Shown: positions 5,360 through 39,888, numbered from the stretch's first letter. The stretch: DNA of 55,890 nt from an uncultured Anaeroplasmataceae bacterium (GCA_948701955.1 CAPSSR010000002.1:1-55890); one strand, 5' to 3'. The notes: generated by a model from the letters alone, not told the origin. Program-made: numbers and translations.

Positions 5360-5418
5360 ATATACCTCATTTAATTGTCATTTTCAGTTAAAAAGACAGC
5401 CATAATGGCTATTCCAAA

Positions 5419-5491
5419 CTGGCTAGATAGGACTCGAACCTACATCCTTCTGATTAACAGTCAGACGCTTTACCAATTAAGCTACTAGCCA
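5419..5491 (-). tRNA. tRNA-Asn (anticodon GTT)
   Basis: Cloverleaf folded by hand: 7-bp acceptor TGGCTAG/CTAGCCA, D-stem GCTT/AAGC, anticodon stem TCTGA/TCAGA with loop CTGTTAA, T-arm GTAGG-TTCGAGT-CCTAT. Confidence 0.8.
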
Positions 5492-5579
5492 ATACCAAAA
5501 TTATATGTTATAATACCGTAGTACAGATGAGGAGAAACAATTATGCTAGACTCAGAGAATGCTATGAGGAGATGAAATT

Positions 5580-6730: not shown

Positions 6731-7501
6731 TTACACAACTCTACAAGTCTTTTCTAAAATATATTCAATATATCGCTTGTAGCATCCATATTGAATAATA
6801 TCAATAATCTTTTTGGGATTATAGTACATCATCATGTTTACATATTCATTTTCTATAACTAAAGAAGAATGCTTATATTTGCATTTATCCATTATTTGAT
6901 ACATAACAATAAGCCTAAACAGATCATCTGGTACTTCTTCGTTTATATAATTTAGAGGAATGCATCTATTATCTTCTTCTATGTCTAATCTTATTCCATC
7001 AACATTAAATGAATCAATAAAATATGTATTAATTATTTCTTTTTCTGAGATATCAAACCATTCTCCATATTTTCTATACTGTTCATATTTTTTGTGCAAA
7101 GCTGATTCATAATCTTTCATACAAGATGATGTCATATATATTATTCCAATAAATCTCAAGTTATGTTCAATGCCTGTAGCAGTTTTAAGAGTGGAAGATA
7201 TAGAAGATAATCTATCATGTGGGTTAGTTGTCATTCCAATTTTAATTAGTCCAGTCGTATCATTTTTTATGAAGTAAACATATTCAGTATGATTGTTTTT
7301 ATCTTCAAGATACATCCTATAGAATAAATCTTTATCCACAAAATCCATAATATTTTTAAATAAATTATATTGTTTTCTTTTTTCTTCGGTGAATTCTTGA
7401 ATAAGATCATAAAGTTCAGGTTGGTTTAATTTAATCTTTTCAATATTTAATTTGGATAATTCTTTTTTAGGAGTAATTCCTAAGATTTCGTACAGTGTCA
7501 T
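6731..7501 (-). CDS. T5orf172 / GIY-YIG-like domain protein
   Basis: 256 aa; YVYFIKNDTTGLIKIGMTTNPHDRL ... LHKKYEQYRKYGEWF matches the T5orf172 (GIY-YIG-related) pattern. Confidence 0.6.
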   Translation of the reverse strand: MTLYEILGITPKKELSKLNIEKIKLNQPELYDLIQEFTEEKRKQYNLFKNIMDFVDKDLFYRMYLEDKNNHTEYVYFIKNDTTGLIKIGMTTNPHDRLSSISSTLKTATGIEHNLRFIGIIYMTSSCMKDYESALHKKYEQYRKYGEWFDISEKEIINTYFIDSFNVDGIRLDIEEDNRCIPLNYINEEVPDDLFRLIVMYQIMDKCKYKHSSLVIENEYVNMMMYYNPKKIIDIIQYGCYKRYIEYILEKTCRVV

Positions 7502-7975: not shown

Positions 7976-8040
7976 ACTTTCACCTCGAGAATAGTATTGA
8001 CGATTTACGCTAAATTATTCTATATATAGATAATTATGAA

Positions 8041-8113
8041 TATGCCTATTGGGATTCGACCCCAAGACATTACGATTAAAAGTCGTATGCTCTACCAATT
8101 GAGCTATAGGCAT
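8041..8113 (-). tRNA. tRNA-Lys (anticodon TTT)
   Basis: Perfect 7-bp acceptor ATGCCTA/TAGGCAT, D-stem GCTC/GAGC, anticodon stem TACGA/TCGTA with loop CTTTTAA, T-arm TTGGG-GTCGAAT-CCCAA. Confidence 0.85.
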
Positions 8114-8133
8114 ATATGGGGGCCCCATGTTTT

Positions 8134-9156
8134 TTATTCAGCAAACAAAGCATTGATTTCTGCTTCAGTAATGGCCACAAAACCATCACCGACTTTGCCT
8201 TCGATTGCAGTTACCCGAGTGTCCATTGCAGAATCAAGCCCATCAGCATAACTCTTTGCATTAGCTTCAGCTGCAGTAGCAGAACCGGCAGCATCAAATG
8301 CATTCTTTACATCCAAAGCAAGCTTTGCAAGCGTCACATTAGCATCAGCGATTTTTGTTGTAATAACAGCATTATCAGCAAGTTCTGTAGTGCCTACACT
8401 GCCAGCAACGATGGTAGCACTGATTTCCCTGGTAGAAGAGTCGATTGCAAGCTGAATTTGAGTCGCATTCTTCTTTACGGTATAAATATCAACCAGCTTG
8501 CCAACATTGATTAGAAGAGGGGTTTCCTGATTTGCGATTACCAGCTTAATATATGTACCAGGAGACTCTCCCTCTGGATCAGTAACTACAGAACCTTCAG
8601 TGACTACCATATCTTTCGGGATGTCAATCACCCCTAGTGTTGTGCCGCCTTGCTTGATAGTATAAGACTTGAACGCTCCACTGGTAGTAGGCGCAGTCTC
8701 AATAGTAACAGCACTTGCCTCGTTTCCAGCAGAAACAGCATCTTTCACTTCATTGATTGCTTCTACAACGTTCGTCTTTACAGTGGTATCTAATTTGGTT
8801 ACATCACCAACTTTAGTATCAACAGTTTTAACCTCAGCTTTTGTTGCAAAATCAGCAATAGCAATACCAGAGTCTACAACAATGCCACCTTCGCCAATGG
8901 TAACTACATTATCTTTTACGCCACCAGAAAGCTTTTCAAGTAATCCGGAAAGATCTTGTTTTTCTGGGAGAGTAATAGAAAAATCAGCTACATCAACAGA
9001 AGTGGCTGCATCCTTTTTATAAAAATTAATCTTTCGATTCGGTTCATCATAAATCACAGTCTTTAAGGATTTTGCATCTCCATCAGAGATTTTGCCTTCA
9101 ATCAATCCTTTGAATACTTGAAGACCAGCAAGATCTACATATTTTGTTGCGGCCAT
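8134..9156 (-). CDS. tail fibre / appendage protein
   Basis: 340 aa, Ala/Thr/Val-rich; segment GSVGTTELADNAVITTKIADANVTLAKLA typical of phage fibre N-terminal repeats; C-terminus ITEAEINALFAE. Confidence 0.5.
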   Translation of the reverse strand: MAATKYVDLAGLQVFKGLIEGKISDGDAKSLKTVIYDEPNRKINFYKKDAATSVDVADFSITLPEKQDLSGLLEKLSGGVKDNVVTIGEGGIVVDSGIAIADFATKAEVKTVDTKVGDVTKLDTTVKTNVVEAINEVKDAVSAGNEASAVTIETAPTTSGAFKSYTIKQGGTTLGVIDIPKDMVVTEGSVVTDPEGESPGTYIKLVIANQETPLLINVGKLVDIYTVKKNATQIQLAIDSSTREISATIVAGSVGTTELADNAVITTKIADANVTLAKLALDVKNAFDAAGSATAAEANAKSYADGLDSAMDTRVTAIEGKVGDGFVAITEAEINALFAE

Positions 9157-9168
9157 TTATTTACCTCA

Positions 9169-9672
9169 CTATTCATTAAAAAGATTCTCTATTTCTTCAT
9201 TTGTTGCGGCTATGAATTTTTCTTCTATTTTTTGGACTATCAAATTATCAAGTGCTAACGTTTGTACAAATTTTTCATCGCTTTCGCTTTTTGTATAATA
9301 ATTCTCAAGATTTATCTTACTTTCATCGATTGTGATTGTTCCAGCAATCAAGATTTCTCCATTTGATAATGTAAATGAAAGAACGCCTTTATCATCAATC
9401 TTAGCAGATATGACAGAAACACCTTTTTCTCCATTCATGACTTCGAGATATGAATTTTGAGGTGTCCCATCATCAAGAGTATAGGTAAATGTGACTCTAT
9501 TTCCACCGATAATAGGTTCTATCTTTGAAACTTGTACATTCTTTCCATGATTGTTTTTTATATCTGAAAGTTTATTGGATACCCATTTTTTAATATTCTC
9601 ATCATAATATTGCAAAATAGGTAATTTAATCAGTTTATCTTCAGGAGAAGACATCCTATTACCTCCTCGCAA
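9169..9672 (-). CDS. structural protein, fibre-associated
   Basis: 167 aa; C-terminus ATNEEIENLFNE shares a motif with neighbouring fibre proteins. Confidence 0.4.
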   Translation of the reverse strand: MRGGNRMSSPEDKLIKLPILQYYDENIKKWVSNKLSDIKNNHGKNVQVSKIEPIIGGNRVTFTYTLDDGTPQNSYLEVMNGEKGVSVISAKIDDKGVLSFTLSNGEILIAGTITIDESKINLENYYTKSESDEKFVQTLALDNLIVQKIEEKFIAATNEEIENLFNE

Positions 9673-9678
9673 AATTTA

Positions 9679-11403
9679 TTATGTTGATATCGTGGCAGGA
9701 TTTAGCTGGTCTAAGTAATTAACTTTATAATTTCCACCTTCCAAGAATGTAACCTTCAACTCCGTATCAGATATATATTCATATTGGGCTTCTGATTCTT
9801 TGAAGTGTCTCCAAGATCCAACTAAGTCTGCAATTTCCCTAATATTATCCAAAATCGTTTTGCCATTTGGGCCATTTTGGGTGATGCATGCGGCAAACCG
9901 AATGGTCTTAGCCTTATAATTATTCCAATCTTCTAGTGGGATTGTAGCAAACTGAGATAAACTCCATCCATTGTTCATAAACTCCTGCTTGTTATGGATG
10001 TCGATATTGTCCCAACTACCAAAGTTATAAGTTTGCCATGTTTTTCCATTATCTTTGGACATTGCAAATTTTACATCAAGATTTTCTACATTGTGGGTGG
10101 AAGTGATGCTTTTGATGAGAGAAATGTCTGAGATGCTTACATCCTGTATTTGCTCTAAAAGTGCCCCATTGACATGTCCCGATATGCTTATTGTTTCTTT
10201 CGGTTCTTTGGACATGACAAGAAAACATGCATCATCTAAAAGTCCAATCCTATTATTTATAACAACATTGCCATAGTCTTTATAGGTATCTTCATCTGGC
10301 ATGCTTTGTGAACCAATTAATTGCCATTTATTTGTAAATGTAGGTCTTATAGAACCGTCAATACATTCAGAACCGTCAAAATATTTATATCCCTCATTAT
10401 CTTTTGCTAGGATATATTTATTTTCATCTCTACCTAACTCTAATTCAACAAATCCGTATGCAGTCCATGGATTTGTAAGGTTCCTTCCTGAATCAGCCTC
10501 AACAGACGCATATCCTCTTGACACTTCTTCACAAAGACTGGGATTTATATATGAAGTGCCACCTGCACCTCCTTTACTATTGCCCAAAGCATTTCCGCCT
10601 GAATAACCAGCCCCAGCACCTCCACCATCATATGGACATCCGCCGCCGCCCCATCCCCCATAGTGAACGGCATGTTGTGCACCTGTCGGTGAAGAACCAG
10701 ACAGCAGACTATATGATGCACAAGGACCATTTCCTTTTGCTCCATTCCCAGTAAGACCGGCACCTCCAGAACCGCCAGAAGCAGAGCCGCCATTTGTATT
10801 AGTACCATTTGTCACAACAGCGTCTCCACCATAATAAGCAGAGCCAAAAGATGAATCAAAACATCCTCCACCTCCACCTGCAACAAATAGAACATCAACT
10901 TTTCTGTTAAGTGGGGAAAAGGTGTAAGTACCTGATGGATTGTCCTTCAAAACGACAGATGCTCCACCTCCACCAGAACCCCAGTCTCCGCCATTATTAC
11001 ACCAGCCACGCATACCAACAAGAATGTATAAAATATCTCCCTTTTTAAGTTTTGATATTCCGACAATCTTTGCCCCTCGCCCCGGTCTGTTCCCGCTACC
11101 AGAGACTGCCCCGGTGATAGGATTTATTGTATATCCTGATTTGCCAGTTGCCCCTCCAGCAGCGCCTCGTACTATAAATTTGACCTTCCCAGAAGAGGGA
11201 ACTAAATATTTCTGCCATCCGTAACCTATTCCAGTTACTCTTCCGGCCAAATTAACATCATTAGCATAACAACTATTTATATGATTCACTATATTCGCAG
11301 GTGTTTGAACGCTTATGTATCCATAACTGGAAGGAGTTGCTGCACCAAGGCCATTATATTCTCCACCAACAGCGCAGGATTTAAATTGCAAAATCTTTCC
11401 CAT
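9679..11403 (-). CDS. glycine-rich tail fibre protein
   Basis: 574 aa with long G-rich tracts (GGGGASVV, GGGGGCFDSS, GGWGGGGCPYDGGGAGAGYSGG) in central third. Confidence 0.5.
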   Translation of the reverse strand: MGKILQFKSCAVGGEYNGLGAATPSSYGYISVQTPANIVNHINSCYANDVNLAGRVTGIGYGWQKYLVPSSGKVKFIVRGAAGGATGKSGYTINPITGAVSGSGNRPGRGAKIVGISKLKKGDILYILVGMRGWCNNGGDWGSGGGGASVVLKDNPSGTYTFSPLNRKVDVLFVAGGGGGCFDSSFGSAYYGGDAVVTNGTNTNGGSASGGSGGAGLTGNGAKGNGPCASYSLLSGSSPTGAQHAVHYGGWGGGGCPYDGGGAGAGYSGGNALGNSKGGAGGTSYINPSLCEEVSRGYASVEADSGRNLTNPWTAYGFVELELGRDENKYILAKDNEGYKYFDGSECIDGSIRPTFTNKWQLIGSQSMPDEDTYKDYGNVVINNRIGLLDDACFLVMSKEPKETISISGHVNGALLEQIQDVSISDISLIKSITSTHNVENLDVKFAMSKDNGKTWQTYNFGSWDNIDIHNKQEFMNNGWSLSQFATIPLEDWNNYKAKTIRFAACITQNGPNGKTILDNIREIADLVGSWRHFKESEAQYEYISDTELKVTFLEGGNYKVNYLDQLNPATIST

Positions 11404-11414
11404 TTTTCTCCTCC

Positions 11415-14400
11415 CTAACCTATGTTGTCTATATCTTTATAATCATCTAAATTAACATCTACATGAGAATAATAAAAGTTGGATACAGTATCTAAATCAG
11501 TCTCTTTTTCTTTTATTGAAATGGTCAGTTTACTTGATGCAGAAATATCTAGTAAATCTTCATTATAGCTGAACATGGATGGATTGCTTACAGTAATAAT
11601 CTCTTTTTCCTGATCCTTCAATCCCTCAATTTCTCTTAAGATCTCAACAGGCATAAAAGCAAAGTATTGATTTGGCGTAACTGTTATCATATATTTTGAA
11701 CCTTTGACAACAGAAAAATATTCAGATTGTAAGATGCTCATATCTCCAACGACAGGAGCTGCTTCCTGTGTGCCACGTCCCAAAATCTGATATGAACCAT
11801 CCAGCCATACAGAAATAGAAGGGTGGTTCCGAACTCGTGAATCTTCATAAATTACATATAAGGTATTAGATTCGCCAGTGACAGGTAATAGATTTTCATT
11901 TACTAAAAATAACACTTTTACGCCAATCTCTATCCCGTCATAAGTGAAATTTCCTGAAGCAGACTGTCCAATCTTATCTAACACTGTTTTATTTGTATGG
12001 TTATGTGCGACTGTTACGGTATTATCAATGGTAAGTGGGGTAGAAGCGGGCTTCCCTTGTAAATTTCCCCAATTGAATTGTATCGATATTTTATTTGCAT
12101 CTAATAGGTTCCACTTTGATCCATCCCATAAATATTGATCACAAACTACAGGGATAACGCCAGCAGCACTTACTTGGACATAGCCTATATTACCAATTTG
12201 GTTCCCAGTTGATGGCAAATCAGATATATTCGTGACATAATAAGCCTTGTTCATTCCGTCCCATCTATCTTTGTCGTCTTGAGTGACATGAACAACAGTA
12301 TCCGATATATGGTTATCATAAGGCGCTAAACCCGAAACATCCACTTTCGCATTCCATGCATCCTTTTCAGACTGGGTGGTATGCTTTACGCTATCTATGA
12401 TATGAGCATCTAAATCTGTTCGCAGCCCATTTTCAATACCCTTGGATCTAGTGGCTTCAGCATTTACTAAGGAAGTTGCTGCATTTAAGGTATCGGTATC
12501 TTTTGCGTCAATTTCTGTTTTAGAATATGTATCTGTTAATGCATCAGGCAGATTTGCAGTTGGTACTTTACCGTTTGCATCTAATGGAGCATATCCATTA
12601 GCTTGTCCTTTGTTTGATATGTCCTCTGGAGCATATCCAATTGTAGCAAGGATATCGGATGAAGTGATGCCCTTACTATAGAACTCTTTCAAACCACCTA
12701 ATGATGTGATACCATCACCGATAACTAATATTTCCCTATTTGAATCCCATATAAGCTCATTTTTCTTCGGAATAAATGTATTATCAGTTAAATCACTTTT
12801 TTCTTTAACAGTTATTTCAATAAGATTCCCATCTACCGAATCAAATACTTCCCATTGCCCCTCGGAACTACCGATATCCCTTTTCCTAAAATATAATCTG
12901 CCATCCTCATTTGTCTCAGGAAATGTAAAAGTTCCTTGAGGGATTGGATTTATGTCCCAAGTAAATCCGTTGTATAAACCAATACCTGCTTGTCCAGGCG
13001 CAGTAGTAGTACAATTTGTAATAAGTACCCAATTGCCCCTAACAGCGAGAGTTGGCAAATCTTCCGCAGTGTCTGTTTTGACAGATCCTAAGCATTCTGG
13101 TACATCAACATCCTCTCGTGTTAATCTAGCCAGATTCCCGCTGTCCTTATCAAATTGAAATGAGTCTTTTATTGTAGGCAGAGCAGAGTCGGATATGAAA
13201 TCATTTAGTGCCCTTGCCAATATATCATCTAAATATATAAGGTTATCAGTCTCATAACTTTCACCTTGCCTATATTCTTTGATGACAGCGTTCTTTTTGT
13301 TCTGTGGTAATTCAAACCATTGTTTTCCATTGGCAACATGGAATACTGCTTCAGCATCAATAGAAGCTCCAACACCATTTGCATTTGTTATAATCTCAGA
13401 AGTTGCGTTTACTGAAAGAATTTCTCCGCTAGAGCCAACAGATGACACCACAACATTTACATCTGGTAATGATGTTGGAATAATTTCTCCAACACTGAAT
13501 CCTGTCCCTGGCAGAACTATTTTATAACTATAGTTGTTTGGAGCCAGAGGCATAAATTCCATTTCCCTACTATTAACTGTTTTTGCCTTGATTTGATTTA
13601 AATTGATATCGATTTCTTTGATTAATGCCAGTGTGCCAAGAGGCCCATATACTGCCTCATTTATGCACATATTACGAATGTCTTCACCATTTTCAAAGAC
13701 TATATCAGAAGCATTTAAGATATTTATAGCATCAATCTGTTTGTTCATGTCCTTAGAGGTCTTATATAGCTTGAATTTATAGCTTTCAGCCATTTCTCTT
13801 AAATTGCCATTTTTGATATCTATATTGATAGATTCTTCGATAGTGCTTCCAGTGTTGTCAGAAATATAGTCTTGTAATACTCTACCAATACGTCCATCTG
13901 CAAAAACCAACTTGTCTTTTGAAAAAAATGTATTCTGTTTGTATGGTTTGATTCCAGGTTCTGCCTCTTTATTTACAACCAGAAGATTACCAATAGTAAT
14001 ATCCTTTTCAAAAGAATCACTAACTGTGTCTCCGACATCTGAACTTGCTACGAAATCGTTCATTGCCCTTGCTAACAAATCTCCATTATATACCAATGTA
14101 TCCTTTAGATACATGTTGCTTTGGGCATACATATTCATAATATGGACATGATCTGCATTGATTAAATTAATATGGAGATTTTTGATATCGTCTTCAAATG
14201 ATTCTGTAATTGAAAATCCAGATGTATTATCAGAAGTGAAATCTTGTTCTACCCTTGCAATCTTATCTCCAAGATAAACAAGGGAATCTTTTTTATAATT
14301 TGTATCTTGATTATATTCTCGCACTAAGAAATTTCCAGCGCTGCCTTGATTAAATTCTCTCCATTTTCCAAGAGATGAATCTACTGGGTTATTGGAGTTA

Positions 14401-17685: not shown

Positions 17686-17724
17686 TTATTCACCAACTTT
17701 CTTTAATATTTTCGGTTCCAATAA

Positions 17725-17805
17725 TGGATGTCTCTGGACTCGAACCAGAAATGCCGAAGCCACAGATTTACAGTCTGCTGCGATTCCAATTCCGCTCACA
17801 CATCC
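17725..17805 (-). tRNA. tRNA-Tyr (anticodon GTA), class II with long variable arm
   Basis: Acceptor GGATGTG/GACATCC (one mismatch), 3-bp D-stem, anticodon loop CTGTAAA, variable arm GGCTTCGGCATT, T-arm TCTGG-TTCGAGT-CCAGA. Confidence 0.75.
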
Positions 17806-18017
17806 ATTAAAATAGGAGAGTATTGATAACTCTCCTGAAATATTCTGTCTTTCCAGAATGTTAAACTGCATAGCAGTTATTCGCTAATTTATAAAAGCCA
17901 TCATTATCAAAAGTGGCTTTCAACCATAATCAATGTTGTTATTTCCAAACAAAAATCATCATTAACGCAGATGAGTACGAACCTCTTAGCTTATAACAAC
18001 TTACTTAATTATGACTT

Positions 18018-18592: not shown

Positions 18593-19627
18593 TTAGATGA
18601 ATGCCTCATCAGATTCATCATCTTCATCTTTTTTGATTATGTAATGATTCTTGGTTGTAGAAACATCATTATGCCCTAATAATTTTTGAGCAACCTCTGC
18701 TGATTTATGCTCATACACAACAATATTGGTCGCTCTGCTTTCACGGAATAGGTGAGGATGTACTCTGCGTCCTACAATTTTTGTAAACAATCCTTGGCAC
18801 CACCCGTTAAAAGTATCTTCTCCAACCTGGCGAGTAGTTCCATCTTTCTGCTTAATTACAAACATAAAAGGACAGTCATCATCACCACGAATTTCTAACC
18901 ATTTTTTCAGCCAACACATAGCATCTTCGCCAAATTTTAATTTTCTCTGTTTGCCAACAATAGAAGCACCTTTACACCGGATCGTATGAGTTTGATACGA
19001 TTTAGATACTGCTTCTTGTTCATTTCCATCTTCATCAATTATCTTGATTTTCTTTTCTTTTGGTTCATAGTCTACAACTTCTTTGAGAAGTTGTCTTGCT
19101 TCTGCACGTCTACAGCCAGTGGAATAAGAAAAGACTAAGTAAGCTAATTTTTGCCATTCCTCACGTTTTTCTAATTCTTCACAAAGCATTACATACTCAT
19201 CTGGTGTAAGAGGAACTTTCTCATGCACATATCCTGTCTTAACTACTTTTAATCCAACTGTAAAATTACGAAATGTGGGATATTCGTCTTCATACATCAT
19301 CATTATATAATTACAAAATGAACTGACGCTTGATTTTTTGAATTTAATAGCTGAATCAGATAATCCTCTATTTGTAATCCAGTTTAAATATCTTACATAT
19401 TCTTTCTTCTTTATATCAAGAAAACTTTTATTATTAAGATTCTGCTTAACCCAGTAGAAAAATATCCGCAATCCTGATTTGTAAGCTATTTTTGTTTTTA
19501 TGGATAAATCGGTTTGGTTATCCAAATATTCCTGAACCATGTTTCTATTGAATTCAAGAACTTCAGACCACATTTTATCGGTTATATCATCACTACGTTT
19601 TGCATTCTTGCCATCCACATTTATCAC
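18593..19627 (-). CDS. int: tyrosine recombinase / phage integrase
   Basis: 344 aa; catalytic signature GCRRAEARQL ... HPHLFRESRATNIV ... LLGHNDVSTTKNHYI (R-HxxR-Y); SAM-like N-terminal domain. Confidence 0.85.
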   Translation of the reverse strand: MINVDGKNAKRSDDITDKMWSEVLEFNRNMVQEYLDNQTDLSIKTKIAYKSGLRIFFYWVKQNLNNKSFLDIKKKEYVRYLNWITNRGLSDSAIKFKKSSVSSFCNYIMMMYEDEYPTFRNFTVGLKVVKTGYVHEKVPLTPDEYVMLCEELEKREEWQKLAYLVFSYSTGCRRAEARQLLKEVVDYEPKEKKIKIIDEDGNEQEAVSKSYQTHTIRCKGASIVGKQRKLKFGEDAMCWLKKWLEIRGDDDCPFMFVIKQKDGTTRQVGEDTFNGWCQGLFTKIVGRRVHPHLFRESRATNIVVYEHKSAEVAQKLLGHNDVSTTKNHYIIKKDEDDESDEAFI

Positions 19628-23368: not shown

Positions 23369-23614
23369 CTATTCATCAGCTTCTTCTGATGTAACCAAAT
23401 CTAAATCCTCATCTGATTTCAGACTTACACAAAATTCGATTGGCTGATTTATAAATACTTTTAGCAAATCGGTTACTCTTATATCTTGTTCTGCATCATT
23501 TTCATCGGTATAGGTAATAAATGTTGCATCTTCTGACAGAACACCTTTTATTGTTAGTTTGTCGGTGATATTTCTCTTAAAAGATAGTTTGGATTTCAAA
23601 AATTTATCCTCCAT
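23369..23614 (-). CDS. hypothetical protein
   Basis: 81-aa acidic ORF, coupled to downstream gene. Confidence 0.4.
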   Translation of the reverse strand: MEDKFLKSKLSFKRNITDKLTIKGVLSEDATFITYTDENDAEQDIRVTDLLKVFINQPIEFCVSLKSDEDLDLVTSEEADE

Positions 23615-23616
23615 GC

Positions 23617-24747
23617 TTAATAAAAATTATTTTTCAGAATATATTCAATATTATCAAAATCCCAATACCAAATTTCTAATAGTTTAATATTATGATCTTT
23701 TGCATATTGTCTCTTTCTTCTATCATGCTCTTGTTGTTTGTATAACTTCATTTTTGTTTGATGCCTTGCAGTTCCATCGTGAAATTCTCCTTGATATTCT
23801 ATAAGATAGTTGAATTTTGGTATATAAAAGTCAAAAGATAACTTTCCTCCGTTTATTCCAATTAATCCATCAAATTCTTTTTGCCATACATAATTAATAT
23901 TTTTGTTCTTTAATATTTCTTCAATTCTTTTTTCGCCTTTAGATACATTACACTTTGGACATCCACTTTTTTCACCTGTAATTAAATTGCTAGGTTTTGC
24001 TTTCCAGATATATCCGCATTGCAAACATTGAAATTTTATTTTATGATTTACAGTTGAAAATGTTTCTAATGGTTTAATAGATTTATGATTTTTTGATAGT
24101 TCATCTACAAATTCTTCATGTGTTCTTCTTACTTTATTTATACACCTATGGCAATAACCCTTTGAATTAACAAAGGCTGGGATTGTAGTATTCCAACTAT
24201 AGTTACATTTTTTGCATTTGCAAGTAATTTTACTGTCAAGCCCCACATATTCCGCTTTGTTGATTTCTACAATAACATTTGTATTTTTGTTATTTAGCTC
24301 TTCTAAAACTTCATCTAAAGATTTAATACGAGCTTTCTTTTTGCAGCGAGGACAATAATTTCTTTCCACTGTATTTTTGGCGATTTCTTCCCATTCATAT
24401 TCACAAACATTACATCTGCATTTTACTTTATTTAGTATACCATGATACTCGCTTAAAACAGTAAAATTTCTTTTAGACTTTATTTTTTCAAGAAAAGTCT
24501 CATTATTAAGAATTCTTCCTGAACAATAAGGACATGGAATATAAGAATTATTTTTATAGTTTCTTGCAAGTGTATCTGGAGTGATTGAAAAAGTGTTATT
24601 ACAATTTTTGCATTTAAATGTCACATCCGTTTTTGCGTTTTTATACTTATTAAGTAATTCAAGTTGTGGAAATTTGTTATGTATTTCTATTGTATATTCT
24701 TCATTTGTTTTCTTTTTTGGCATTTTATAACAACTCCTTCGTAACAA
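23617..24747 (-). CDS. 4x zinc-ribbon repeat protein with C-terminal DUF559/Vsr-like endonuclease domain
   Basis: 376 aa; four C-x2-C-x-(Y/F)-x-W ... C-x2-C repeats; C-terminal GEKRIEEIL...FDFYIP...LIEYQGEFH resembles PD-(D/E)xK DUF559. Confidence 0.5.
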   Translation of the reverse strand: MLRRSCYKMPKKKTNEEYTIEIHNKFPQLELLNKYKNAKTDVTFKCKNCNNTFSITPDTLARNYKNNSYIPCPYCSGRILNNETFLEKIKSKRNFTVLSEYHGILNKVKCRCNVCEYEWEEIAKNTVERNYCPRCKKKARIKSLDEVLEELNNKNTNVIVEINKAEYVGLDSKITCKCKKCNYSWNTTIPAFVNSKGYCHRCINKVRRTHEEFVDELSKNHKSIKPLETFSTVNHKIKFQCLQCGYIWKAKPSNLITGEKSGCPKCNVSKGEKRIEEILKNKNINYVWQKEFDGLIGINGGKLSFDFYIPKFNYLIEYQGEFHDGTARHQTKMKLYKQQEHDRRKRQYAKDHNIKLLEIWYWDFDNIEYILKNNFY

Positions 24748-24817
24748 TATTAAGAAATAAGATAAGTTGCCTTATCTATATTCCACTTTTCTAAACTTCT
24801 ATTTAATAATTCTGTTT

Positions 24818-24858
24818 TTTCAAACAAAAAGACCAGAAATCCTTTTGACTTCTGGTCT
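24818..24858 (-). terminator. rho-independent terminator
   Basis: 9-bp stem AGACCAGAA/TTCTGGTCT with 11-nt loop; tttttgtttg on minus strand after the stem. Confidence 0.55.
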
Positions 24859-25052
24859 GTATCAATTCTTATAATTGGATTGCTATTTTCAATTAAATAA
24901 TTCGCTAATCGTTTACTTTTACAAACAAACAATGAAATTTTCCTTTCATGAATATATTTTTATATTTTCTAACATTTATATTTTTAAAATTTGTGGGCTG
25001 TTGACGAAGAGCCATACTACGGAGGTTTATTTTACCAAAACAAACAAAGGAA

Positions 25053-25128
25053 TCGGGGATCAGGGACTCGAACCCTGGGCAAACATAGTTTATAAGACTA
25101 CTGCTCTAACCAACTGAGCTAATCCCCA
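25053..25128 (-). tRNA. tRNA-Ile (anticodon TAT), tentative identity
   Basis: Acceptor (T)GGGGAT/ATCCCCG, D-arm GCTC-AGTTGGTTA-GAGC, anticodon stem GTAGT/ACTAT with loop CTTATAA, T-arm CAGGG-TTCGAGT-CCCTG; variable region about 7 nt. Confidence 0.65.
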
Positions 25129-25687
25129 AAAGAAATAAGTGGAGATGCCACCAGAACGGTAGCGCCACCACCTATATAGGAGAAAAATATATGAAGAAAG
25201 AGTGCAATTATCAGATGCTTGAAACAGGACTGAAATGCTGATTTGTGATTTCAACCAATTTGTCATCAGCATTACACTGATGTAATTAACCATATCAATC
25301 ATGATTAATAAAAATCTTTAAAATATTTGCTGTTAATTTTTTCGTATCTTCACAAAAAATTATGTTCAAAAAGATAAGATTGACGCAACGGTTGTCATGA
25401 TTTTAAGTTTTCATTATAGCAAATTACTAGAATTGCAAAATAACATAATTGGCAAATTGCAACGTGCTTAACGAAGATTATATGATATCATATAGGTATA
25501 CTTGATGCTTGGAAATGTTTCCTAACAAATCTGTTATGCACAATGTGTCTTTCGTTTTCATAATTCGATATTTTTTGGACAATATCATACTCGCAGCATT
25601 ATACTTTATCTGCGACTAAAGCGGTTGACCACCACAAAACGCTTATTTCAACCCTGTTGCAAGCATCTGATAGTGGAAGAGGAGTGG

Positions 25688-26305
25688 CTATTGTTTAGCA
25701 GCCACTACATCTTCAAAGGTATCGGAGATATCCCATTTTGGAATAAAATCAAGTTCTGTGTTGATTTCGATAGAATCTAATTTTGCAGAAACGCCATCGC
25801 AAATTTTATTATACTTTTTAATCAAGGCCTTTACATCATTACGATTAAAATCTATCTGGGTAGTCTCAACGATATCATAGAAATACTTGACCTGGTTTCC
25901 CTCAGCATTAAATTTATATCCAGAGCCAGAGACTGTTTTTTCGCCAGATTTAATGTCTGCGATATATTTTAGCGTATTAACAAAGGACTGTCTTTTCTTA
26001 TTCATGGAAATTGCATTATCTATGTTGATTTCAGCACTGGCCTTGGCAACAGCGATAGCATTAACAAGAGATTCCTTTTCGGTAATGACTTTTATGATAA
26101 AATCAATTACATCATTCGGAGTGTAGTCCACATCATAGGATTTTGGCACTTCAATAATTTCGTCAACCGCATCACTATTTGCCTTTTTGCGCAAATGGTT
26201 TTGCTTGGTAGTCGTAGTAAATGCTTTGTCATAAAGATGCCTTTGTGCAGTCTCATATAAATTATCAAGATAGTTTGCGTAACGGTAAGACTCTTTTAGA
26301 TTCAT
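25688..26305 (-). CDS. hypothetical protein
   Basis: 205-aa ORF. Confidence 0.5.
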   Translation of the reverse strand: MNLKESYRYANYLDNLYETAQRHLYDKAFTTTTKQNHLRKKANSDAVDEIIEVPKSYDVDYTPNDVIDFIIKVITEKESLVNAIAVAKASAEINIDNAISMNKKRQSFVNTLKYIADIKSGEKTVSGSGYKFNAEGNQVKYFYDIVETTQIDFNRNDVKALIKKYNKICDGVSAKLDSIEINTELDFIPKWDISDTFEDVVAAKQ

Positions 26306-27173: not shown

Positions 27174-29684
27174 TCATTCAGTATATACAGTGTTTAGTTC
27201 CTCCAATCTTTTTATAAGTTCTTCTCCAATACAATCCCAACAGAACTGCTTGTTCCCCTTATATCCGTAGGTAATGTCTAAAATAATATTCAAACGTTCC
27301 TCATCGTTGGGACATATATCTTTTGCTTCCTGATTAAATTTTGCATATAGGAAACGTCTATTTTTATTAGAATCGCCTTTGTCATGATGCTTTTGTTTTT
27401 TGTATTCTCTTACACATTCACAATAATATTGTTCTAATTCCTTAAGGGCCAATCTATGTTCTTCTGTACAACGTTTTTTTGTTTTTAATACATTGTAATC
27501 AAATGAGGAATTACTGTGTAACCGAGACTTATATCCATCCAACTGGCTTTCCACATATCTACATATTTTATTCATAGAGCAGTTTCCCATGCCAACAGGC
27601 AATTTAAATTCATACCAAAACAAAAATTTTTTCTGATCGTCAGATAAATTGCTAGTGTTTGCATATAAATCCTGAAGAGAACAATTATACAATGCATTGC
27701 ATTTGTTATTACTTTCTTTTATATATTTTTTATAATCACGTTTAGCTTCTTCGTAAATGTAAATCATAAAATATGGTTTTCGATATGCACATATAGACTG
27801 CAAATATCTGTCATCACCACAAGCCCTCATATTATACCATCTGCTGGGCATAGGGTCAGAGATTATTCCTTTAATCCGATCAATCTCATTTTGCTGGTAG
27901 AGCTGTCCACATCCTATCCTATACTCCAATTCCTTATATGCATCAGAATTTTTCTCAAAATGTGATTGTACCTCCATCATTGATGTGACATAATTAGTAA
28001 TAATACCAACTTTATTGCCCATTCCATTTTTATTAGTCTTTTTTACTTCATTTTCTGTAATGATAATTTTGGATGTATTACGCTGAACACATTCAATAGC
28101 GGGAAGTTTCCTATATCTCCTCTTAAGCACGGCGTTATTAGTGGAAAAGAGTATATCACTATCCCAATCACACCCATTTTCTGCCATACAGAATGAGTCC
28201 CAGGCATTAATAATCATAATAGTATCCATATATTGATACCATCGCTTGCACTCATTAGAATTATTTACTCTACACATACGAATATTATTATGGCTTGTCA
28301 TAGGACTTCTAAAAACAACAACGTCCTCTTCATCTTTATTAATCCAAAACTTAGAATAACATTCATCAGCCTCAAGTAATCCTGTAACTTCTAATCCACA
28401 AATAGATTGCATAAGTGCGAATGGATCTCCACTAGCAATTTGATAATTACCTTGTACAAGCAATTTCCCAATCTTGGCATCATTCATTTTCTTTTTAATA
28501 AACCTGTGAACTGAATCAATCACATATGGGTCACCAAGCATATATTCATTTGTATATAATGCCCGCTGCCATGAATTGACCTCTGTATTTTCGGTAATTC
28601 CTAAAAACTTAATAGTAGAAGAGTAGTCTCCACACATAGCATCTTTCAAATAGTTTATAGTTGGTGTACAGAGTTCTTCTATATCATCATTGGTAAATTC
28701 ATATGATTGCAAATATTGATAATTTAGTTCCCGTTGTTCCTCCAACACATGCGGAGAAATTTTTGTGACAGAAAATTCATATCCACATTCTTTATAGGCA
28801 TTCTCATAACTTTCAATATTGTCATATGCCATCCATAATTTGAGAGATGATTCAGTCAAGATTATTTCACATTTACGAATGTCTTGTACATTCCCCCATA
28901 TATCTTCTATAAAATAGTTGCCATTATTAAATTCTTCAACGAATTCTACTATTGGAAATGGATATAACATTCCTTTTAGCCAGGCATTCCTTAAACAGAC
29001 TCCACTTGGAATATAATCTAATCCTAGAGATTGGGCTACTCGTTCCATATAGCCTATAGTACATAGGTTAAAACCATCAGAAACAGTATTTTCTAATTGC
29101 TTATGCAATATTGTTTCCATAACAGGCTCATCAGAATCTTTTCCGTCATCCAAAGATATTACATCTGCAAAGTATTGAGTAACACAGTCTTTAACAACCA
29201 AAATCCCAATTGGGTTACATATTGGTTGAGAGGATGAGCATGTCAATGCTTTATATGCCTCATATTTTGCAGGTACAAGTGGTATATTTTTATTTCTTTT
29301 ACATTCACAAAGTTCATTTAGCTTATCTATATATTTTGAATTGCAAAATAGAAGAGTGTTATTTTTCAAACCGCCAGTAGTCCCAACAAATCTTCGATAA
29401 TTTATGCCATTTACTGTCACGCCTTTATTACAGGTAGCTCTACCAAAATCTGACTTTTTATTTATAACGATTTGTATAAAAATTTTAGAAAAATCAATTT
29501 CTTCAATGCTCTTTTGTAAAACCCTATTTGCCATAATACGGAATTCTTGTGCTTCAAATAGTGCCACAAGTTCCTGAAATTTGAATGCTTCCTTTTTGGT
29601 TATTTTCAGATCCCAATTATAATATTTGAGTTTGTTTGTTCCTATTTTGAAAATCTCATATTGAGGTACGCTAATCCCAGCCAT
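27174..29684 (-). CDS. large hypothetical protein; candidate nucleotidyl-transferase (YonO-like single-subunit RNA polymerase?)
   Basis: 836 aa; VVFRSPMTSHNNIRMC followed about 45 aa later by AENGCDWDSDILFS, reminiscent of the beta-prime R-x-P-x-x-H ... NADFDGD catalytic segment. Confidence 0.5.
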   Translation of the reverse strand: MAGISVPQYEIFKIGTNKLKYYNWDLKITKKEAFKFQELVALFEAQEFRIMANRVLQKSIEEIDFSKIFIQIVINKKSDFGRATCNKGVTVNGINYRRFVGTTGGLKNNTLLFCNSKYIDKLNELCECKRNKNIPLVPAKYEAYKALTCSSSQPICNPIGILVVKDCVTQYFADVISLDDGKDSDEPVMETILHKQLENTVSDGFNLCTIGYMERVAQSLGLDYIPSGVCLRNAWLKGMLYPFPIVEFVEEFNNGNYFIEDIWGNVQDIRKCEIILTESSLKLWMAYDNIESYENAYKECGYEFSVTKISPHVLEEQRELNYQYLQSYEFTNDDIEELCTPTINYLKDAMCGDYSSTIKFLGITENTEVNSWQRALYTNEYMLGDPYVIDSVHRFIKKKMNDAKIGKLLVQGNYQIASGDPFALMQSICGLEVTGLLEADECYSKFWINKDEEDVVVFRSPMTSHNNIRMCRVNNSNECKRWYQYMDTIMIINAWDSFCMAENGCDWDSDILFSTNNAVLKRRYRKLPAIECVQRNTSKIIITENEVKKTNKNGMGNKVGIITNYVTSMMEVQSHFEKNSDAYKELEYRIGCGQLYQQNEIDRIKGIISDPMPSRWYNMRACGDDRYLQSICAYRKPYFMIYIYEEAKRDYKKYIKESNNKCNALYNCSLQDLYANTSNLSDDQKKFLFWYEFKLPVGMGNCSMNKICRYVESQLDGYKSRLHSNSSFDYNVLKTKKRCTEEHRLALKELEQYYCECVREYKKQKHHDKGDSNKNRRFLYAKFNQEAKDICPNDEERLNIILDITYGYKGNKQFCWDCIGEELIKRLEELNTVYTE

Positions 29685-37060: not shown

Positions 37061-38109
37061 GAAAGTTATCTCCTTTGCATCTTTGGATATATTATTGCTC
37101 TGATTATTGTATCTGTGTTCAGCTATACGAAATCAATCTATTCTTTCTCTATCTAGCAGAAGAGCAGATAAGAAAAAACGAAACATAAATGATAGGCTTC
37201 TCTGCAGTATTTTTTCTTATAGATGTATATGGTATGCCAAATCATAAGACTACGTAATGATTTTTTGCCCAAATTCGCTTATAGAAGAAGCATAGGTATA
37301 TTTTATAAGATATGATACTATTTTACGAAAATGGGCCTCAAATCATTTGTGTACGTTATAATGCCAGCAAATTGCTTTCTGCTTTATGTTCAATCTGTAT
37401 TTGGTACTTATTCATTAAAAAAATCTCCGTATTATTTTTTGCATTAGAGCCATAAAATATTATTCTCTTTTTTGTCAGGATATTTAATGAGTTCGGTGAT
37501 GGATGGTATTTGTCCTATTTTTGGATTACGAAAGATATTGATTCTACTGGATGAACTGCATTTTTGCATATATGATTCGTTAGCTTCTTCTAATGAATAT
37601 ACTTAGCAAATATGAAATTCTGAGAAGGGTTCGAGAATATGCTGATTTTATAAGGGATTTTAATATTTTTAGAGGTAATTTTTTCGATTTTGAATGCTGG
37701 AATAATTGTCTGAAAATTTATTTGTGGTTGATTTCGATGGATTTTAGAGGATTGGCTTCGAAGTGCTAACCGAACTGTTTTTTGAATTGTGTAGAAGTTT
37801 GATGCAATTTGGGGATGATAGGTGGAGTCAAAATTTTAAGCTGATGTGAGAATGGAACTGATAAGCGCTTTTGAGGCTTTGACAATCCATTTTAAAATGT
37901 AAATATACCCCCCATATGTCAATATTTTGAGGTATGAGCACCCATAAACAAAACCGCATATTTACTTGTTTTCAAGTTACAAAAATGTTGTATTCATAAC
38001 TTTATATATAGGTCTGATATGTCAACAAATAATCAATTTTGTAATCAGCTATAAGTGGTCATCTATCCATCGCACTTGATTAAAATATATCAATAAAAAA
38101 TTTAAATAT

Positions 38110-38176
38110 ATAAACCTATCGTGCTGGTATGTTAATGAATATAAACTTATTAACATACTAACATAGTAGGTTTATA
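38110..38176. repeat. nested inverted repeats (cruciform-capable palindrome)
   Basis: Outer ATAAACCTAT / TAGGTTTAT (38110-38119 / 38167-38175); inner GTATGTTAAT / ATTAACATAC (38127-38136 / 38149-38158). Confidence 0.6.
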
Positions 38177-38711
38177 GGTGGTTCGGCAACTGTATTAGTC
38201 GGCTAATACGGTTTTGATAAAACAACAAATATACTATTTCCAAAACAACATATCTACTAAAAACCTATTAAAATCTATTGATAATCATCTTAAAAAACAG
38301 GCCTACATTAAACTATGCAACAAATATACAAAATAGTAACATGATAAACACTCTAATAAACACAATAGCACATCAACCATCGCTCCATCATATCATACCC
38401 TACATGTCATCTTTACATCAATAGCACATGCACACAATAACCATGCGCACATGTGCTATACCAGTGCTATATCATTTATTTGCCCTATATACCGCATTTA
38501 TCCCCTAAACCCAACAACTATACCGTCACTACATTTCAGCCCCTATTTGCCCTAAATAGGCCTATACAGTGCCATAATAATCGCTGACTCTAATCAGTCA
38601 CTACTCCATCATATGAACCAATTTCCATCAACCTTCCATCATGAATCCCTTACTATCCAGATTATCCAGATCTGCTTCAATCAGTCCCTTGATATAAGCA
38701 GCGGCGTTATA

Positions 38712-39376: not shown

Positions 39377-39691
39377 ATGAAAGAATACAGAAAAATAACA
39401 AGAATTGATAAAACAGATAGCTATTCCCCAATAGACATGTACTACACTGCTGAGTATACCGAATACAGAGAAGATGGAATCATAAAATGCAAAGGCACTG
39501 AGGATTTTTCTGGCGAAAGAAAAAATACTTTGCATAGTTGGGATATATGTGTCCCAACTAATAAAACAAATAAAGGTGGACATACAATATGGGATAAAGT
39601 CGATAATATAACTACCACTGATGCAAAAAACGCTAAAAAGATAGCAACTTTTAAGTATGGTAACAAAGTCCAGCTAAGAAAAATAAGATAA
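39377..39691 (+). CDS. hypothetical protein
   Basis: 104-aa ORF divergent from HTH pair. Confidence 0.4.
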   Translation: MKEYRKITRIDKTDSYSPIDMYYTAEYTEYREDGIIKCKGTEDFSGERKNTLHSWDICVPTNKTNKGGHTIWDKVDNITTTDAKNAKKIATFKYGNKVQLRKIR

Positions 39692-39888
39692 TAAATCCCC
39701 TGAAGAGTCTTTGAGAATTAAGACGAAACTACCCACACAAAGGGTAGTCGGGATAGTAACACAAGTAACAATCAATATCCCTAACCGTACCTTGATAATT
39801 GAATAGGCTTTACACCTTCCAGACAATCCGTTATAATAAGATTGTAACAGTATATACTACCATGACAATCAAAAAGGCGGTGAAAGGA

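What the first reader, a model, noticed from the sequence alone, without database searches (positions are those of the whole stretch)
25053..25128. tRNA with a genomically encoded UAU anticodon (Ile, AUA decoder), and four tRNAs dispersed through the element
The tRNA after the multi-zinc-ribbon nuclease gene folds with anticodon loop CUUAUAA, that is anticodon UAU. That is rare in bacteria, which normally read AUA with a lysidine-modified CAU tRNA. It is advantageous for an AT-rich phage rich in ATA codons. Together with Asn-GTT (5419-5491), Lys-TTT (8041-8113) and Tyr-GTA (17725-17805) the element supplies tRNAs for A/T-ending codons (AAT/AAC, AAA, TAT/TAC, ATA), consistent with codon-usage compensation against a higher-GC host. 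The variable region of the Ile tRNA is about 7 nt, which is unusual.
Basis: seen in the sequence. Interest (0 to 1): 0.5.

Follow-up and report, generated by a model that had tools for sequence, protein, structure and literature searches.

The report
Phage tRNA-Ile with UAU anticodon
A mouse-gut phage of Lachnospiraceae carries a genuine isoleucine tRNA with a gene-encoded UAU anticodon, plus Asn, Lys and Tyr tRNAs; this anticodon is rare in bacteria but common in phages, so the finding is real but ordinary.

Summary
ARAGORN and Rfam both call four tRNAs, all on the minus strand: Asn-GUU, Lys-UUU, Tyr-GUA and Ile-UAU (25053-25128, 59.6 bits, E 2e-10). The Ile tRNA has a 7-nt variable loop.

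The window is a 33% GC temperate phage with portal, terminase, integrase and a YonO-like RNA polymerase. It comes from mouse gut. Relatives lie in Lachnospiraceae genomes, one in Roseburia sp. 1XD42-69 (42.5% GC).

A UAU anticodon is rare in bacteria but not in phages. A capped IMG/VR scan gave 105 tRNA-Ile(UAU) genes in 120 loci, and cultured cyanophage S-SM2 has one.

The tRNA sits in a conserved slot about 2 kb downstream of the polymerase gene. Three divergent tRNA-Ile(UAU) types occupy that slot in relatives. Other relatives hold Lys, Ala, Met+Pro or Met+Asn there.

ATA is frequent in this window (32.6 per 1000 codons, 36% of Ile). However, relatives with only 13-15 ATA per 1000 keep the tRNA. 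Codon compensation is therefore plausible but unproven.

Two side findings:
- Relatives carry a GOLLD RNA directly upstream of the slot tRNA. The window instead has an unclassified, strongly folding region of about 460-560 nt.
- The adjacent nuclease gene is a strain-variable mobile cassette.

Verdict: new member of a known kind, low interest.

The parts
25053..25128 (-). tRNA-Ile gene with encoded anticodon UAU (anticodon at 25094-25092). It has U1.G72, discriminator A73, U12-A23, A37, A38, a 7-nt variable loop and no encoded CCA (U74 follows).
   Evidence: ARAGORN (cloverleaf); Rfam RF00005 at 59.6 bits, E 2e-10; sequence read.
5419..5491 (-). tRNA-Asn (GUU)
   Evidence: 76.1 bits.
8041..8113 (-). 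tRNA-Lys (UUU). It lies 20 nt downstream of gene 8134-9156. A homing-endonuclease-like gene (6731-7501) lies further downstream.
   Evidence: 70.9 bits; phrog_18411.
17725..17805 (-). tRNA-Tyr (GUA), class II with a long variable arm. It lies about 0.8 kb downstream of an integrase gene (18593-19627).
   Evidence: 41.9 bits; (phrog_1 integrase).
25135..25175 (-). Stem-loop followed by a U-rich tract, ending 7 nt before the tRNA 5' end. An equivalent hairpin precedes the tRNA in relative L016.
   Evidence: Folds; terminator-like hit 25152-25138; alignment.
25413..25421 (-). Extended -10 promoter-like motif TGcTATAAT about 285 nt upstream of the tRNA. It is conserved (TGtTATAAT) in the diverged allele L161.
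   Evidence: Sequence read; alignments. Promoter function is inferred, not shown.
25209..25672 (-). Unclassified structured non-coding element closed by a 28-nt long-range helix (arms 25672-25645 and 25236-25209, 408 nt apart). It occupies the place that GOLLD RNA holds in relatives.
   Evidence: Inverted repeat. The 562-nt stretch 25129-25690 that holds the element folds with z = -5.9 on the minus strand and -2.9 on the plus strand. Against allele L161 the helix keeps pairing through 2 two-sided and 5 one-sided changes, with none broken. No Rfam family at E<=10.
24830..24858 (-). Intrinsic-terminator-like hairpin (12-bp stem plus T run) about 195 nt downstream of the tRNA. It lies inside the strain-variable nuclease cassette.
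23592..24971 (-). Mobile cassette carrying the HNH / multi-zinc-ribbon nuclease gene (ORF 23617-24747; likely ATG start at 24723). It is inserted 81 nt 3' of the tRNA. It is absent from strain variants L161 and L162 and from all relatives.
   Evidence: PHROG HNH and homing-endonuclease families and Pfam DUF4379; no tblastn match in 25 related loci; presence/absence in 98-100% identical contigs.
27174..29684 (-). YonO-like single-subunit RNA polymerase gene, used as the synteny anchor for the tRNA slot about 2 kb downstream.
   Evidence: tblastn to SPbeta yonO and to Enterocloster and Clostridium phages; related loci.

Best explanation
The locus is a functional phage-encoded elongator tRNA that reads the isoleucine codon AUA through a gene-encoded UAU anticodon.

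Proposed steps, all inferred:
- It is transcribed on the minus strand with its neighbours, probably from the conserved extended -10 motif at 25421-25413 and by read-through from upstream.
- RNase P cuts it out at U1, and RNase Z cuts after A73, because no CCA is encoded and U74 follows. The host CCA-adding enzyme then completes it.
- A37 is made t6A and host IleRS charges the tRNA with isoleucine.
- It then adds AUA-decoding capacity without needing host lysidine synthetase (TilS), which the usual bacterial tRNA-Ile2(CAU) requires.

Together with the Asn, Lys and Tyr tRNAs it raises supply for amino acids that make up about 30% of this AT-rich phage's codons, in a Lachnospiraceae host of higher GC.

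Shown: the gene, its cloverleaf and anticodon, its conservation in a syntenic slot, and the phage's codon counts. Inferred: expression, processing, charging, and the selective benefit.
For: The tRNA is called by two methods.

Three divergent tRNA-Ile(UAU) types (window, L016/L145, L005 group) sit at the same place about 2 kb downstream of the polymerase gene. By direct reading of their sequences, compensatory changes occur in every stem. The loop stays CUUAUA(A/U) and base 73 stays A.

Its features match the viral tRNA-Ile(UAU) population: A73 in 78 of 79, and a wobble 1-72 pair in 37 of 79.

Sequence elements associated with IleRS recognition are present: A35, U36, A37, A38, A73 and U12-A23 (the element list is from my own knowledge of Nureki et al. 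1994).

ATA is 36% of Ile codons and 32.6 per 1000. Ile, Lys, Asn and Tyr together are about 30% of codons.

Host assignment: the identical polymerase protein occurs in mouse-gut metagenomes. Relatives with 77-88% identity lie in Roseburia sp. 1XD42-69 and in Lachnospiraceae MAGs. The Roseburia genome is 42.5% GC (PMC13348305), against 33.1% for the window.

The low-GC relatives in IMG/VR and the Roseburia prophage (28-36% GC) all carry a tRNA in the slot; the short contig L146 (32% GC) does not, and none of the five 44-47% GC relatives does.

Arg at the wobble-contact site of IleRS allows charging of UAU tRNA, and some Firmicutes have Arg there (PMC3575796).
Against: No expression, processing or charging data exist.

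Host codon usage, the host tRNA set and the host IleRS residue were not obtainable.

The L005-type relatives keep tRNA-Ile(UAU) with only 13-15 ATA per 1000 codons. This is below the 15-22 per 1000 in high-GC relatives that lack it. In their polymerase gene ATA is only 8% of Ile codons.

The slot holds unrelated tRNAs (Lys, Ala, Met+Pro, Met+Asn) in close relatives. This looks like accessory cargo rather than a fixed need.

Glu, Asp and Phe codons are as frequent as the supplied ones, yet no tRNA for them lies in this window.

An unmodified UAU anticodon can misread AUG, and Trp-type IleRS charges it poorly (PMC3575796).

U1.G72 and the 7-nt variable loop are atypical.
Confidence: 0.6

Rival explanations
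1. Counter-defence or host-shutoff replacement. The dispersed tRNAs (Lys-UUU, Tyr-GUA, Asn-GUU, Ile-UAU) replace host tRNAs that are cleaved or depleted during infection by anticodon nucleases or general tRNA decay. The UAU version also frees AUA decoding from TilS and from host tRNA-Ile2.
For: tRNA content of the slot changes between close relatives, as expected for arms-race cargo.

tRNA-Ile(UAU) is kept in relatives that use few ATA codons.

Lys-UUU, Tyr and the GUN-anticodon tRNAs are documented targets of PrrC, retron-associated nucleases and colicin E5 (PMC10264068, plus my own knowledge).

Mobile nuclease genes lie next to the tRNAs.
Against: No tRNA-targeting defence is known for this host.

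No tRNA repair genes (RNA ligase, Pnkp) were found in the window.

I know of no anticodon nuclease that targets tRNA-Ile2.

The anticodon loops are canonical rather than visibly mutated.
Confidence: 0.2
2. Hitch-hiking cargo. The tRNA is carried along with mobile DNA, either a large structured RNA module or a homing-endonuclease cassette, and persists by linkage and gene conversion with little benefit of its own.
For: The nuclease cassette 23592-24971 is present or absent among 98-100% identical strains and absent in all relatives.

The element upstream of the tRNA is the only strongly diverged patch (80% identity) in otherwise identical DNA.

GOLLD plus tRNA modules fill the same slot in relatives. 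GOLLD and ROOL are known to lie near phage tRNA islands (PMC12286853).
Against: The tRNA sequence is 100% conserved between strains while its upstream neighbour diverged.

Three different tRNA lineages in this slot all keep the UAU anticodon and intact stems. That argues for selection on the tRNA itself.
Confidence: 0.12
3. Not an isoleucine decoder. The RNA is charged by another synthetase, misreads AUG, or serves a non-translational role such as a processing signal, a primer or a recombination site.
For: It has U1.G72, a 7-nt variable loop, and G4-C69 and A29-U41 instead of the E. coli Ile pairs.

E. coli IleRS charges UAU tRNA poorly, and UAU binds AUG on E. coli ribosomes (PMC3575796).

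An integrase is encoded in the window.
Against: The tRNA is complete and canonical, with U33, A37, A38, A73, G18G19 and a TUC loop.

The same anticodon and A73 are kept in about 100 distinct viral tRNAs.

The integrase gene is 5.4 kb away, and the tRNA is whole rather than a 3' fragment as in att sites.
Confidence: 0.05

Closest known systems
Phage-encoded tRNA-Ile(UAU), for example in Synechococcus phage S-SM2 (NC_015279) and about 100 distinct IMG/VR examples
   Same: Gene-encoded UAU anticodon, loop CUUAUAA, A73, location in a tailed-phage genome, and frequent company of Lys-UUU, Asn-GUU, Leu-UAA, Arg-UCU and Met-CAU tRNAs.
   Different: In the window it is solitary rather than part of a tRNA array. 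It has a 7-nt variable loop (3 of 106 have 7 nt or more) and U1.G72 (3 of 79). The host lineage is Lachnospiraceae rather than cyanobacteria.
Bacterial tRNA-Ile2(UAU) of tilS-less bacteria (Mycoplasma mobile type; PMC3575796)
   Same: It reads AUA with an encoded UAU anticodon instead of lysidine-modified CAU. It depends on an IleRS that accepts U34.
   Different: It is a viral accessory gene acting beside the host's own AUA decoder, not the cell's only one. Co-adaptation of IleRS and ribosome, shown for M. mobile, is untested here.
T4-type phage tRNA-Ile (CAU, lysidine-dependent; PMC1524935)
   Same: A phage tRNA that supplies AUA decoding to an AT-rich phage.
   Different: The T4 type encodes CAT and needs host TilS. 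This gene encodes TAT.
GOLLD RNA with adjacent tRNA modules in phages (Rfam RF02032; PMC12286853)
   Same: Relatives L002, L005 and L010 have GOLLD ending 28-48 nt before the tRNA of the same slot. In the same place the window has a large non-coding region with strong predicted structure.
   Different: The window's region gives no GOLLD, ROOL or other Rfam match at E<=10. It shares no sequence with the relatives' GOLLD.

Membership tests
tRNA (Rfam RF00005) | Covariance-model score above the curated gathering score (29 bits), with full-length cloverleaf | tested here: met
   59.6 bits, model positions 1-71 of 71, E 2e-10. ARAGORN gives the same cloverleaf.
tRNA (Rfam RF00005) | Conserved tertiary-interaction bases: U8, G18G19, U33, and T-loop U54 U55 C56 with A58 | tested here: met
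   Read directly from UGGGGAU-UA-GCUC-AGUUGGUUA-GAGC...CUUAUAA...CAGGG-UUCGAGU-CCCUG.
tRNA-Ile decoding AUA through an encoded UAU anticodon | Anticodon TAT in the gene | tested here: met
   Anticodon at 25094-25092 on the minus strand.
tRNA-Ile decoding AUA through an encoded UAU anticodon | Isoleucine identity elements: A35, U36, A37 (the t6A site), A38, discriminator A73, U12-A23 | tested here: met
   All are present in the sequence. C4-G69 and C29-G41 of E. coli tRNA-Ile are G-C and A-U here. The element list is from my own knowledge (Nureki et al. 1994).
tRNA-Ile decoding AUA through an encoded UAU anticodon | Charged by an IleRS that accepts U34 (Arg rather than Trp at the wobble-contact residue) | not testable with these tools
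   No host IleRS sequence could be retrieved. The rule is from PMC3575796.
tRNA-Ile decoding AUA through an encoded UAU anticodon | Reads AUA but not AUG on the host ribosome | not testable with these tools
   Needs ribosome binding or proteomics.
Lysidine-dependent tRNA-Ile2 (CAU) | Gene encodes the CAT anticodon | tested here: not met
   The gene reads TAT. A metagenome scan with N at position 34 found only TAT copies of this tRNA.
Phage accessory tRNA acting by codon compensation | Encoded in a phage genome | tested here: met
   Portal, large terminase, tail fibre, integrase and YonO-like polymerase genes are present.
Phage accessory tRNA acting by codon compensation | Cognate codons over-represented in the phage relative to its host | tested here: inconclusive
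   Phage side: ATA 32.6, AAA 61.6, Asn 68 and Tyr 54 per 1000 codons. Host side: only the genome GC of a relative's host is known (42.5%, PMC13348305). Relatives with low ATA use still carry the tRNA.
GOLLD RNA (RF02032) plus tRNA module | GOLLD covariance-model match next to the tRNA | tested here: not met
   No match in window 24600-25900 at E<=10 or in L016 at E<=1. The feature is met in relatives L002, L005 and L010 (159-199 bits).
Suppressor or recoding tRNA | Anticodon complementary to a stop codon, with ORFs lengthening when that stop is read through | tested here: not met
   All four anticodons are sense. Ignoring TAG or TGA raised coverage by long open frames only modestly (73% to 81-82%); ignoring TAA raised it most (to 95%), as expected in AT-rich DNA.

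The most novel reading that the evidence does not exclude
The strongly folding non-coding element of about 460-560 nt directly upstream of tRNA-Ile(UAU) (25129-25690, minus strand) may be an undescribed class of large structured phage RNA. It occupies the exact slot where relatives carry GOLLD RNA and would be functionally analogous to GOLLD and ROOL, that is, a tRNA-linked ornate RNA. The tRNA would then be part of an exchangeable 'large RNA plus tRNA' module rather than a stand-alone gene.
Probability: 0.2. Interest if true: 0.55.

Novelty: new member of a known kind. Interest (0 to 1): 0.25.

Why it matters
In itself it matters little. It adds one more phage tRNA-Ile(UAU), this time from a Lachnospiraceae phage of the mouse gut.

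The broader point concerns AUA decoding. Phages widely use an anticodon that their bacterial hosts almost never encode. Three questions therefore remain under-studied in real hosts: how these tRNAs get charged, how they avoid reading AUG, and why TilS-independence is favoured.

This clade offers a natural comparison. One slot holds Ile, Lys, Ala or Met tRNAs, with or without GOLLD RNA, across phages that range from 28% to 47% GC.

The slot also links tRNAs to GOLLD-type RNAs, whose function is still unknown.

Tried and rejected
- Stop-codon reassignment: coverage by long open frames changed only modestly when TAG or TGA was ignored, so the standard code was assumed.
- Close relatives in cultured phages: there is no megablast match. 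The nearest cultured relatives by protein are Enterocloster bolteae phages at 48% identity. PMBT24 has no tRNA annotated in its first 50 kb.
- Variants of this exact tRNA, including CAU forms. The IMG/VR scan with the anticodon arm gave 6 chance hits without a tRNA. The metagenome scan with N at position 34 gave only identical copies from the same phage plus chance hits. The origin of the tRNA therefore stays unresolved.
- Thermodynamic folding of the tRNA alone gives a non-cloverleaf minimum-energy structure. I did not count this against it, because covariance models and ARAGORN are the proper test.
- Rfam at permissive thresholds found nothing credible besides the tRNA around the tRNA, in L016, or in the 37-43 kb ORF-poor region.
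- The inverted-repeat motif and two conserved blocks of the upstream element were scanned in IMG/VR. The results were 79 unrelated single hits, 0 hits and 0 hits.
- No shared 9-mer order exists between the window's element, L016's gap and the relatives' GOLLD.
- Protein p205 and L016's ORF212, which occupy the same place, are unrelated.
- A recent preprint on phage tRNAs and codon usage has nothing on Ile or ATA.

Full report
**1. Observation**

ARAGORN finds four tRNA genes in the window, all on the minus strand: Asn-GTT, Lys-TTT, Tyr-GTA and Ile-TAT. Rfam's tRNA model finds the same four and nothing else at gathering threshold. The coordinates are 5419-5491 (76.1 bits), 8041-8113 (70.9), 25053-25128 (59.6, E 2e-10) and 17725-17805 (41.9).

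The Ile tRNA reads UGGGGAU-UA-GCUC-AGUUGGUUA-GAGC-A-GUAGU-CUUAUAA-ACUAU-GUUUGCC-CAGGG-UUCGAGU-CCCUG-AUCCCCG-A. This gives anticodon UAU, A37, A38, A73, U1.G72 and a 7-nt variable loop.

ARAGORN's coordinates are one base wider at each end. In all four genes U(-1) can pair with base 73, so it draws an 8-bp acceptor stem. None of the four encodes CCA, and each has U at position 74. From my own knowledge, this is the pattern of RNase Z substrates in Bacillus subtilis.

The only correction is that, on the coding strand, the tRNA lies upstream of the nuclease gene.

**2. What the element is**

The window is 33% GC. It encodes the following:
- a portal protein, large terminase, tail-fibre proteins and an exonuclease;
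- an integrase and a second homing-endonuclease-like protein;
- antirepressor-type proteins, a dCMP deaminase and a Uma2 nuclease;
- an 836-aa homologue of the SPbeta YonO single-subunit RNA polymerase.

No close relative exists among cultured phages. The nearest by protein are Enterocloster bolteae phages at 48% identity and Clostridium phage c-st.

The identical polymerase protein occurs in mouse-gut metagenomes. Relatives with 77-88% identity lie in the isolate genome of Roseburia sp. 1XD42-69 and in mouse-gut Lachnospiraceae MAGs. The Roseburia copy equals IMG/VR provirus L016, which starts about 27.6 kb into the NCBI scaffold. The host family is therefore Lachnospiraceae. Roseburia sp. 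1XD42-69 is 42.5% GC (PMC13348305).

The standard genetic code applies.

**3. Is a UAU anticodon unusual?**

In bacteria it is. Most use lysidine-modified CAU, and only a handful of lineages encode TAT (PMC3575796, PMC8007984). T4-like phages also use the CAU form (PMC1524935).

In phages it is not. ARAGORN then called tRNA-Ile(tat) in 105 of those loci, 99 of them distinct sequences. Their commonest neighbours are Leu-UAA, Met-CAU, Arg-UCU, Asn-GUU and Lys-UUU. The cultured cyanophage S-SM2 has an annotated tRNA-Ile that ARAGORN reads as tat, followed directly by Met-cat.

The window's tRNA fits this population in most respects. A73 occurs in 78 of 79, and a wobble 1-72 pair in 37 of 79. Its 7-nt variable loop is in the tail of the distribution, with only 3 of 106 at 7 nt or more.

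**4. A conserved slot**

Eighteen IMG/VR loci were fetched through the polymerase protein. In thirteen of them a tRNA-Ile(tat) lies at the same spot, about 2 kb downstream of the polymerase gene. L002 has Lys-ttt there, L001 has Ala, L003 has Met+Pro and L004 has Met+Asn. The Roseburia prophage has Ile-tat.

The Ile tRNAs fall into three types: window, L016 and the L005 group. Read directly from the sequences, they differ at pairs 1-72, 2-71, 5-68, 6-67, 7-66, 10-25, 27-43, 29-41, 30-40, 31-39, 49-65, 50-64 and 51-63, and all of these stay paired. The loop remains CUUAUA(A/U) and base 73 remains A. The L005 type has a C3.C70 mismatch.

This is good comparative evidence that the anticodon and fold are under selection.

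**5. Codon usage**

In 61 to 77 long ORFs of the window, ATA is 36% of Ile codons and 32-33 per 1000. AAA is 61, Asn codons 67-68 and Tyr codons 54 per 1000. Ile, Lys, Asn and Tyr together are about 30% of codons.

Relatives split into a low-GC group (28-36%) and a high-GC group (44-47%; L147-L151). In the low-GC group every IMG/VR relative and the Roseburia prophage carries a tRNA in the slot; only the short contig L146 does not. The high-GC group carries none there. Fisher's exact test on presence of the Ile-UAU tRNA (14 of 19 low-GC loci against 0 of 5 high-GC) gives p = 0.006, but the loci are not independent.

Against a simple compensation model, the L005-type loci keep tRNA-Ile(UAU) with only 13-15 ATA per 1000 codons. 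In their polymerase gene ATA is 8% of Ile codons. The high-GC relatives use 15-22 per 1000.

Host codon usage and the host tRNA set could not be obtained. Compensation therefore remains plausible for this phage but is not shown.

**6. Mechanism**

E. coli-type IleRS, with Trp at the wobble contact, charges UAU tRNA poorly. Arg at that site allows charging and occurs in Bacillus subtilis and lactobacilli. Unmodified UAU can also bind AUG on E. coli ribosomes (PMC3575796). Whether the Lachnospiraceae enzyme has Arg is the key untested step.

A UAU gene removes the need for TilS. That is the one clear functional difference from a CAU gene.

No tRNA repair, modification or synthetase genes were found in the window.

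**7. Surroundings of the tRNA**

Downstream of the tRNA, the HNH / multi-zinc-ribbon nuclease gene has no counterpart in any of 25 related loci. Contigs L161 and L162 are 98-100% identical to the window elsewhere but lack 23592-24971. The nuclease is therefore a strain-variable mobile cassette inserted 81 nt 3' of the tRNA. It brings a strong terminator-like hairpin at 24858-24830.

Upstream of the tRNA, relatives L002, L005 and L010 carry a GOLLD RNA (RF02032, 159-199 bits) that ends 28-48 nt before the slot tRNA. This association of GOLLD with phage tRNAs is already described (PMC12286853).

The window and L016 have no GOLLD, even at permissive thresholds. Instead each has an unrelated ORF of about 205-212 aa followed by a non-coding gap of about 500-560 nt.
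- These gaps fold far better than shuffles: z = -5.9 for the window and -5.7 for L016.
- For the window the signal is strand-specific, with z = -2.9 on the plus strand.
- The window's element is closed by a 28-nt inverted repeat at 25672-25645 and 25236-25209.
- It is the only diverged patch (80% identity) between the window and L161.
- Across that divergence the long-range helices, about 39 bp in all, show seven changed pairs. Two changed on both sides, five changed to or from G.U, and none is broken.
- A conserved extended -10 motif (25421-25413) lies inside the element. A hairpin with a U tract (25175-25135) ends 7 nt before the tRNA.
- No further homologues were found, so proper covariation testing was not possible.

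**8. Verdict**

UAU is rare in bacteria but commonplace in phages. The AT-rich phage and more GC-rich host picture holds. Codon compensation is unproven, however, and relatives that keep the tRNA with few ATA codons contradict it in part.

The finding is a new member of a known kind and of low interest. The more unusual item is the unclassified structured element that sits in the GOLLD slot upstream of the tRNA.

Noticed in passing
L010:14037-14482, L005:14037-14495, L002:14292-14766: GOLLD RNA (RF02032, 159-199 bits) lies directly upstream of the syntenic slot tRNA in relatives. The slot tRNA is Ile-UAU in L005 and L010 and Lys-UUU in L002.
   Followed up: yes
window 25129-25690 (minus strand): A non-coding region upstream of tRNA-Ile folds with z = -5.9 (plus strand -2.9). 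A 28-nt long-range helix (25672-25645 with 25236-25209) keeps pairing in an 80%-identical allele (L161). No Rfam family matches. It is a possible new large RNA or an RNase III-type processing stem.
   Followed up: partly
window 23592-24971: The HNH / multi-zinc-ribbon nuclease gene with its own terminator-like hairpin is absent from otherwise 98-100% identical contigs L161 and L162 and from all relatives. It is a free-standing homing-endonuclease-type cassette next to the tRNA.
   Followed up: yes
window 5418-5492, 8040-8114, 17724-17806, 25052-25129: All four tRNAs lack an encoded CCA. Each has U at -1, able to pair with base 73, and U at position 74. This suggests one shared processing route through RNase P, RNase Z and the CCA-adding enzyme.
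   Followed up: partly
window 27174-29684; hits H66-H71: The window encodes a YonO-like single-subunit RNA polymerase. In five of six Enterocloster bolteae phages the homologous match is split into 2-3 pieces spread over 3.4-3.6 kb. This suggests intervening sequences in their genes.
   Followed up: no
window 6731-7501 and 18593-19627: A second homing-endonuclease-like gene lies downstream of tRNA-Lys. A tyrosine integrase gene lies about 0.8 kb upstream of tRNA-Tyr. The dispersed tRNAs therefore sit beside mobile-DNA genes.
   Followed up: partly
L010:583-671, L011:426-514, L015:295-383, L017:543-631 (minus strand): ARAGORN calls an 89-nt 'tRNA-Stop (tta)' in four relatives. Rfam did not confirm it in L010 at gathering threshold. 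The ARAGORN Met-cat at L010:13580-13650, inside the GOLLD 5' region, was not confirmed either.
   Followed up: partly
window 8134-9156 and 8000-14000: Gene 8134-9156 has no ATA among 27 Ile codons. The surrounding tail-fibre block is 37-40% GC against 29-34% in the neighbouring segments. It looks like a mosaic module from a more GC-rich phage.
   Followed up: no
window 39667-39754 (plus strand): There is a sub-threshold match to the RAGATH-1 hammerhead ribozyme (31.8 bits against a gathering score of 56.3, E 0.022), and a weaker match to Hammerhead_1.
   Followed up: no
window 37061-38711: A 1.65-kb stretch has no ORF longer than 58 aa on either strand. The 37061-38000 part is not unusually structured (z = -0.45), and no Rfam match was found.
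   Followed up: partly
L162:1-150: The 5' end of this metagenome contig reads like a mouse B1-type SINE followed by an A-rich tail, then joins phage DNA. It is probably a chimeric assembly, consistent with a mouse sample. The SINE identification is from my own knowledge.
   Followed up: no
L147-L151 compared with L001-L017: The same phage clade (polymerase 74-88% identical to the window's) spans 28-36% GC and 44-47% GC genomes. The high-GC members carry Val-GAC (L148) and Leu-AAG (L149) tRNAs upstream of the polymerase gene instead of a tRNA in the downstream slot.
   Followed up: partly
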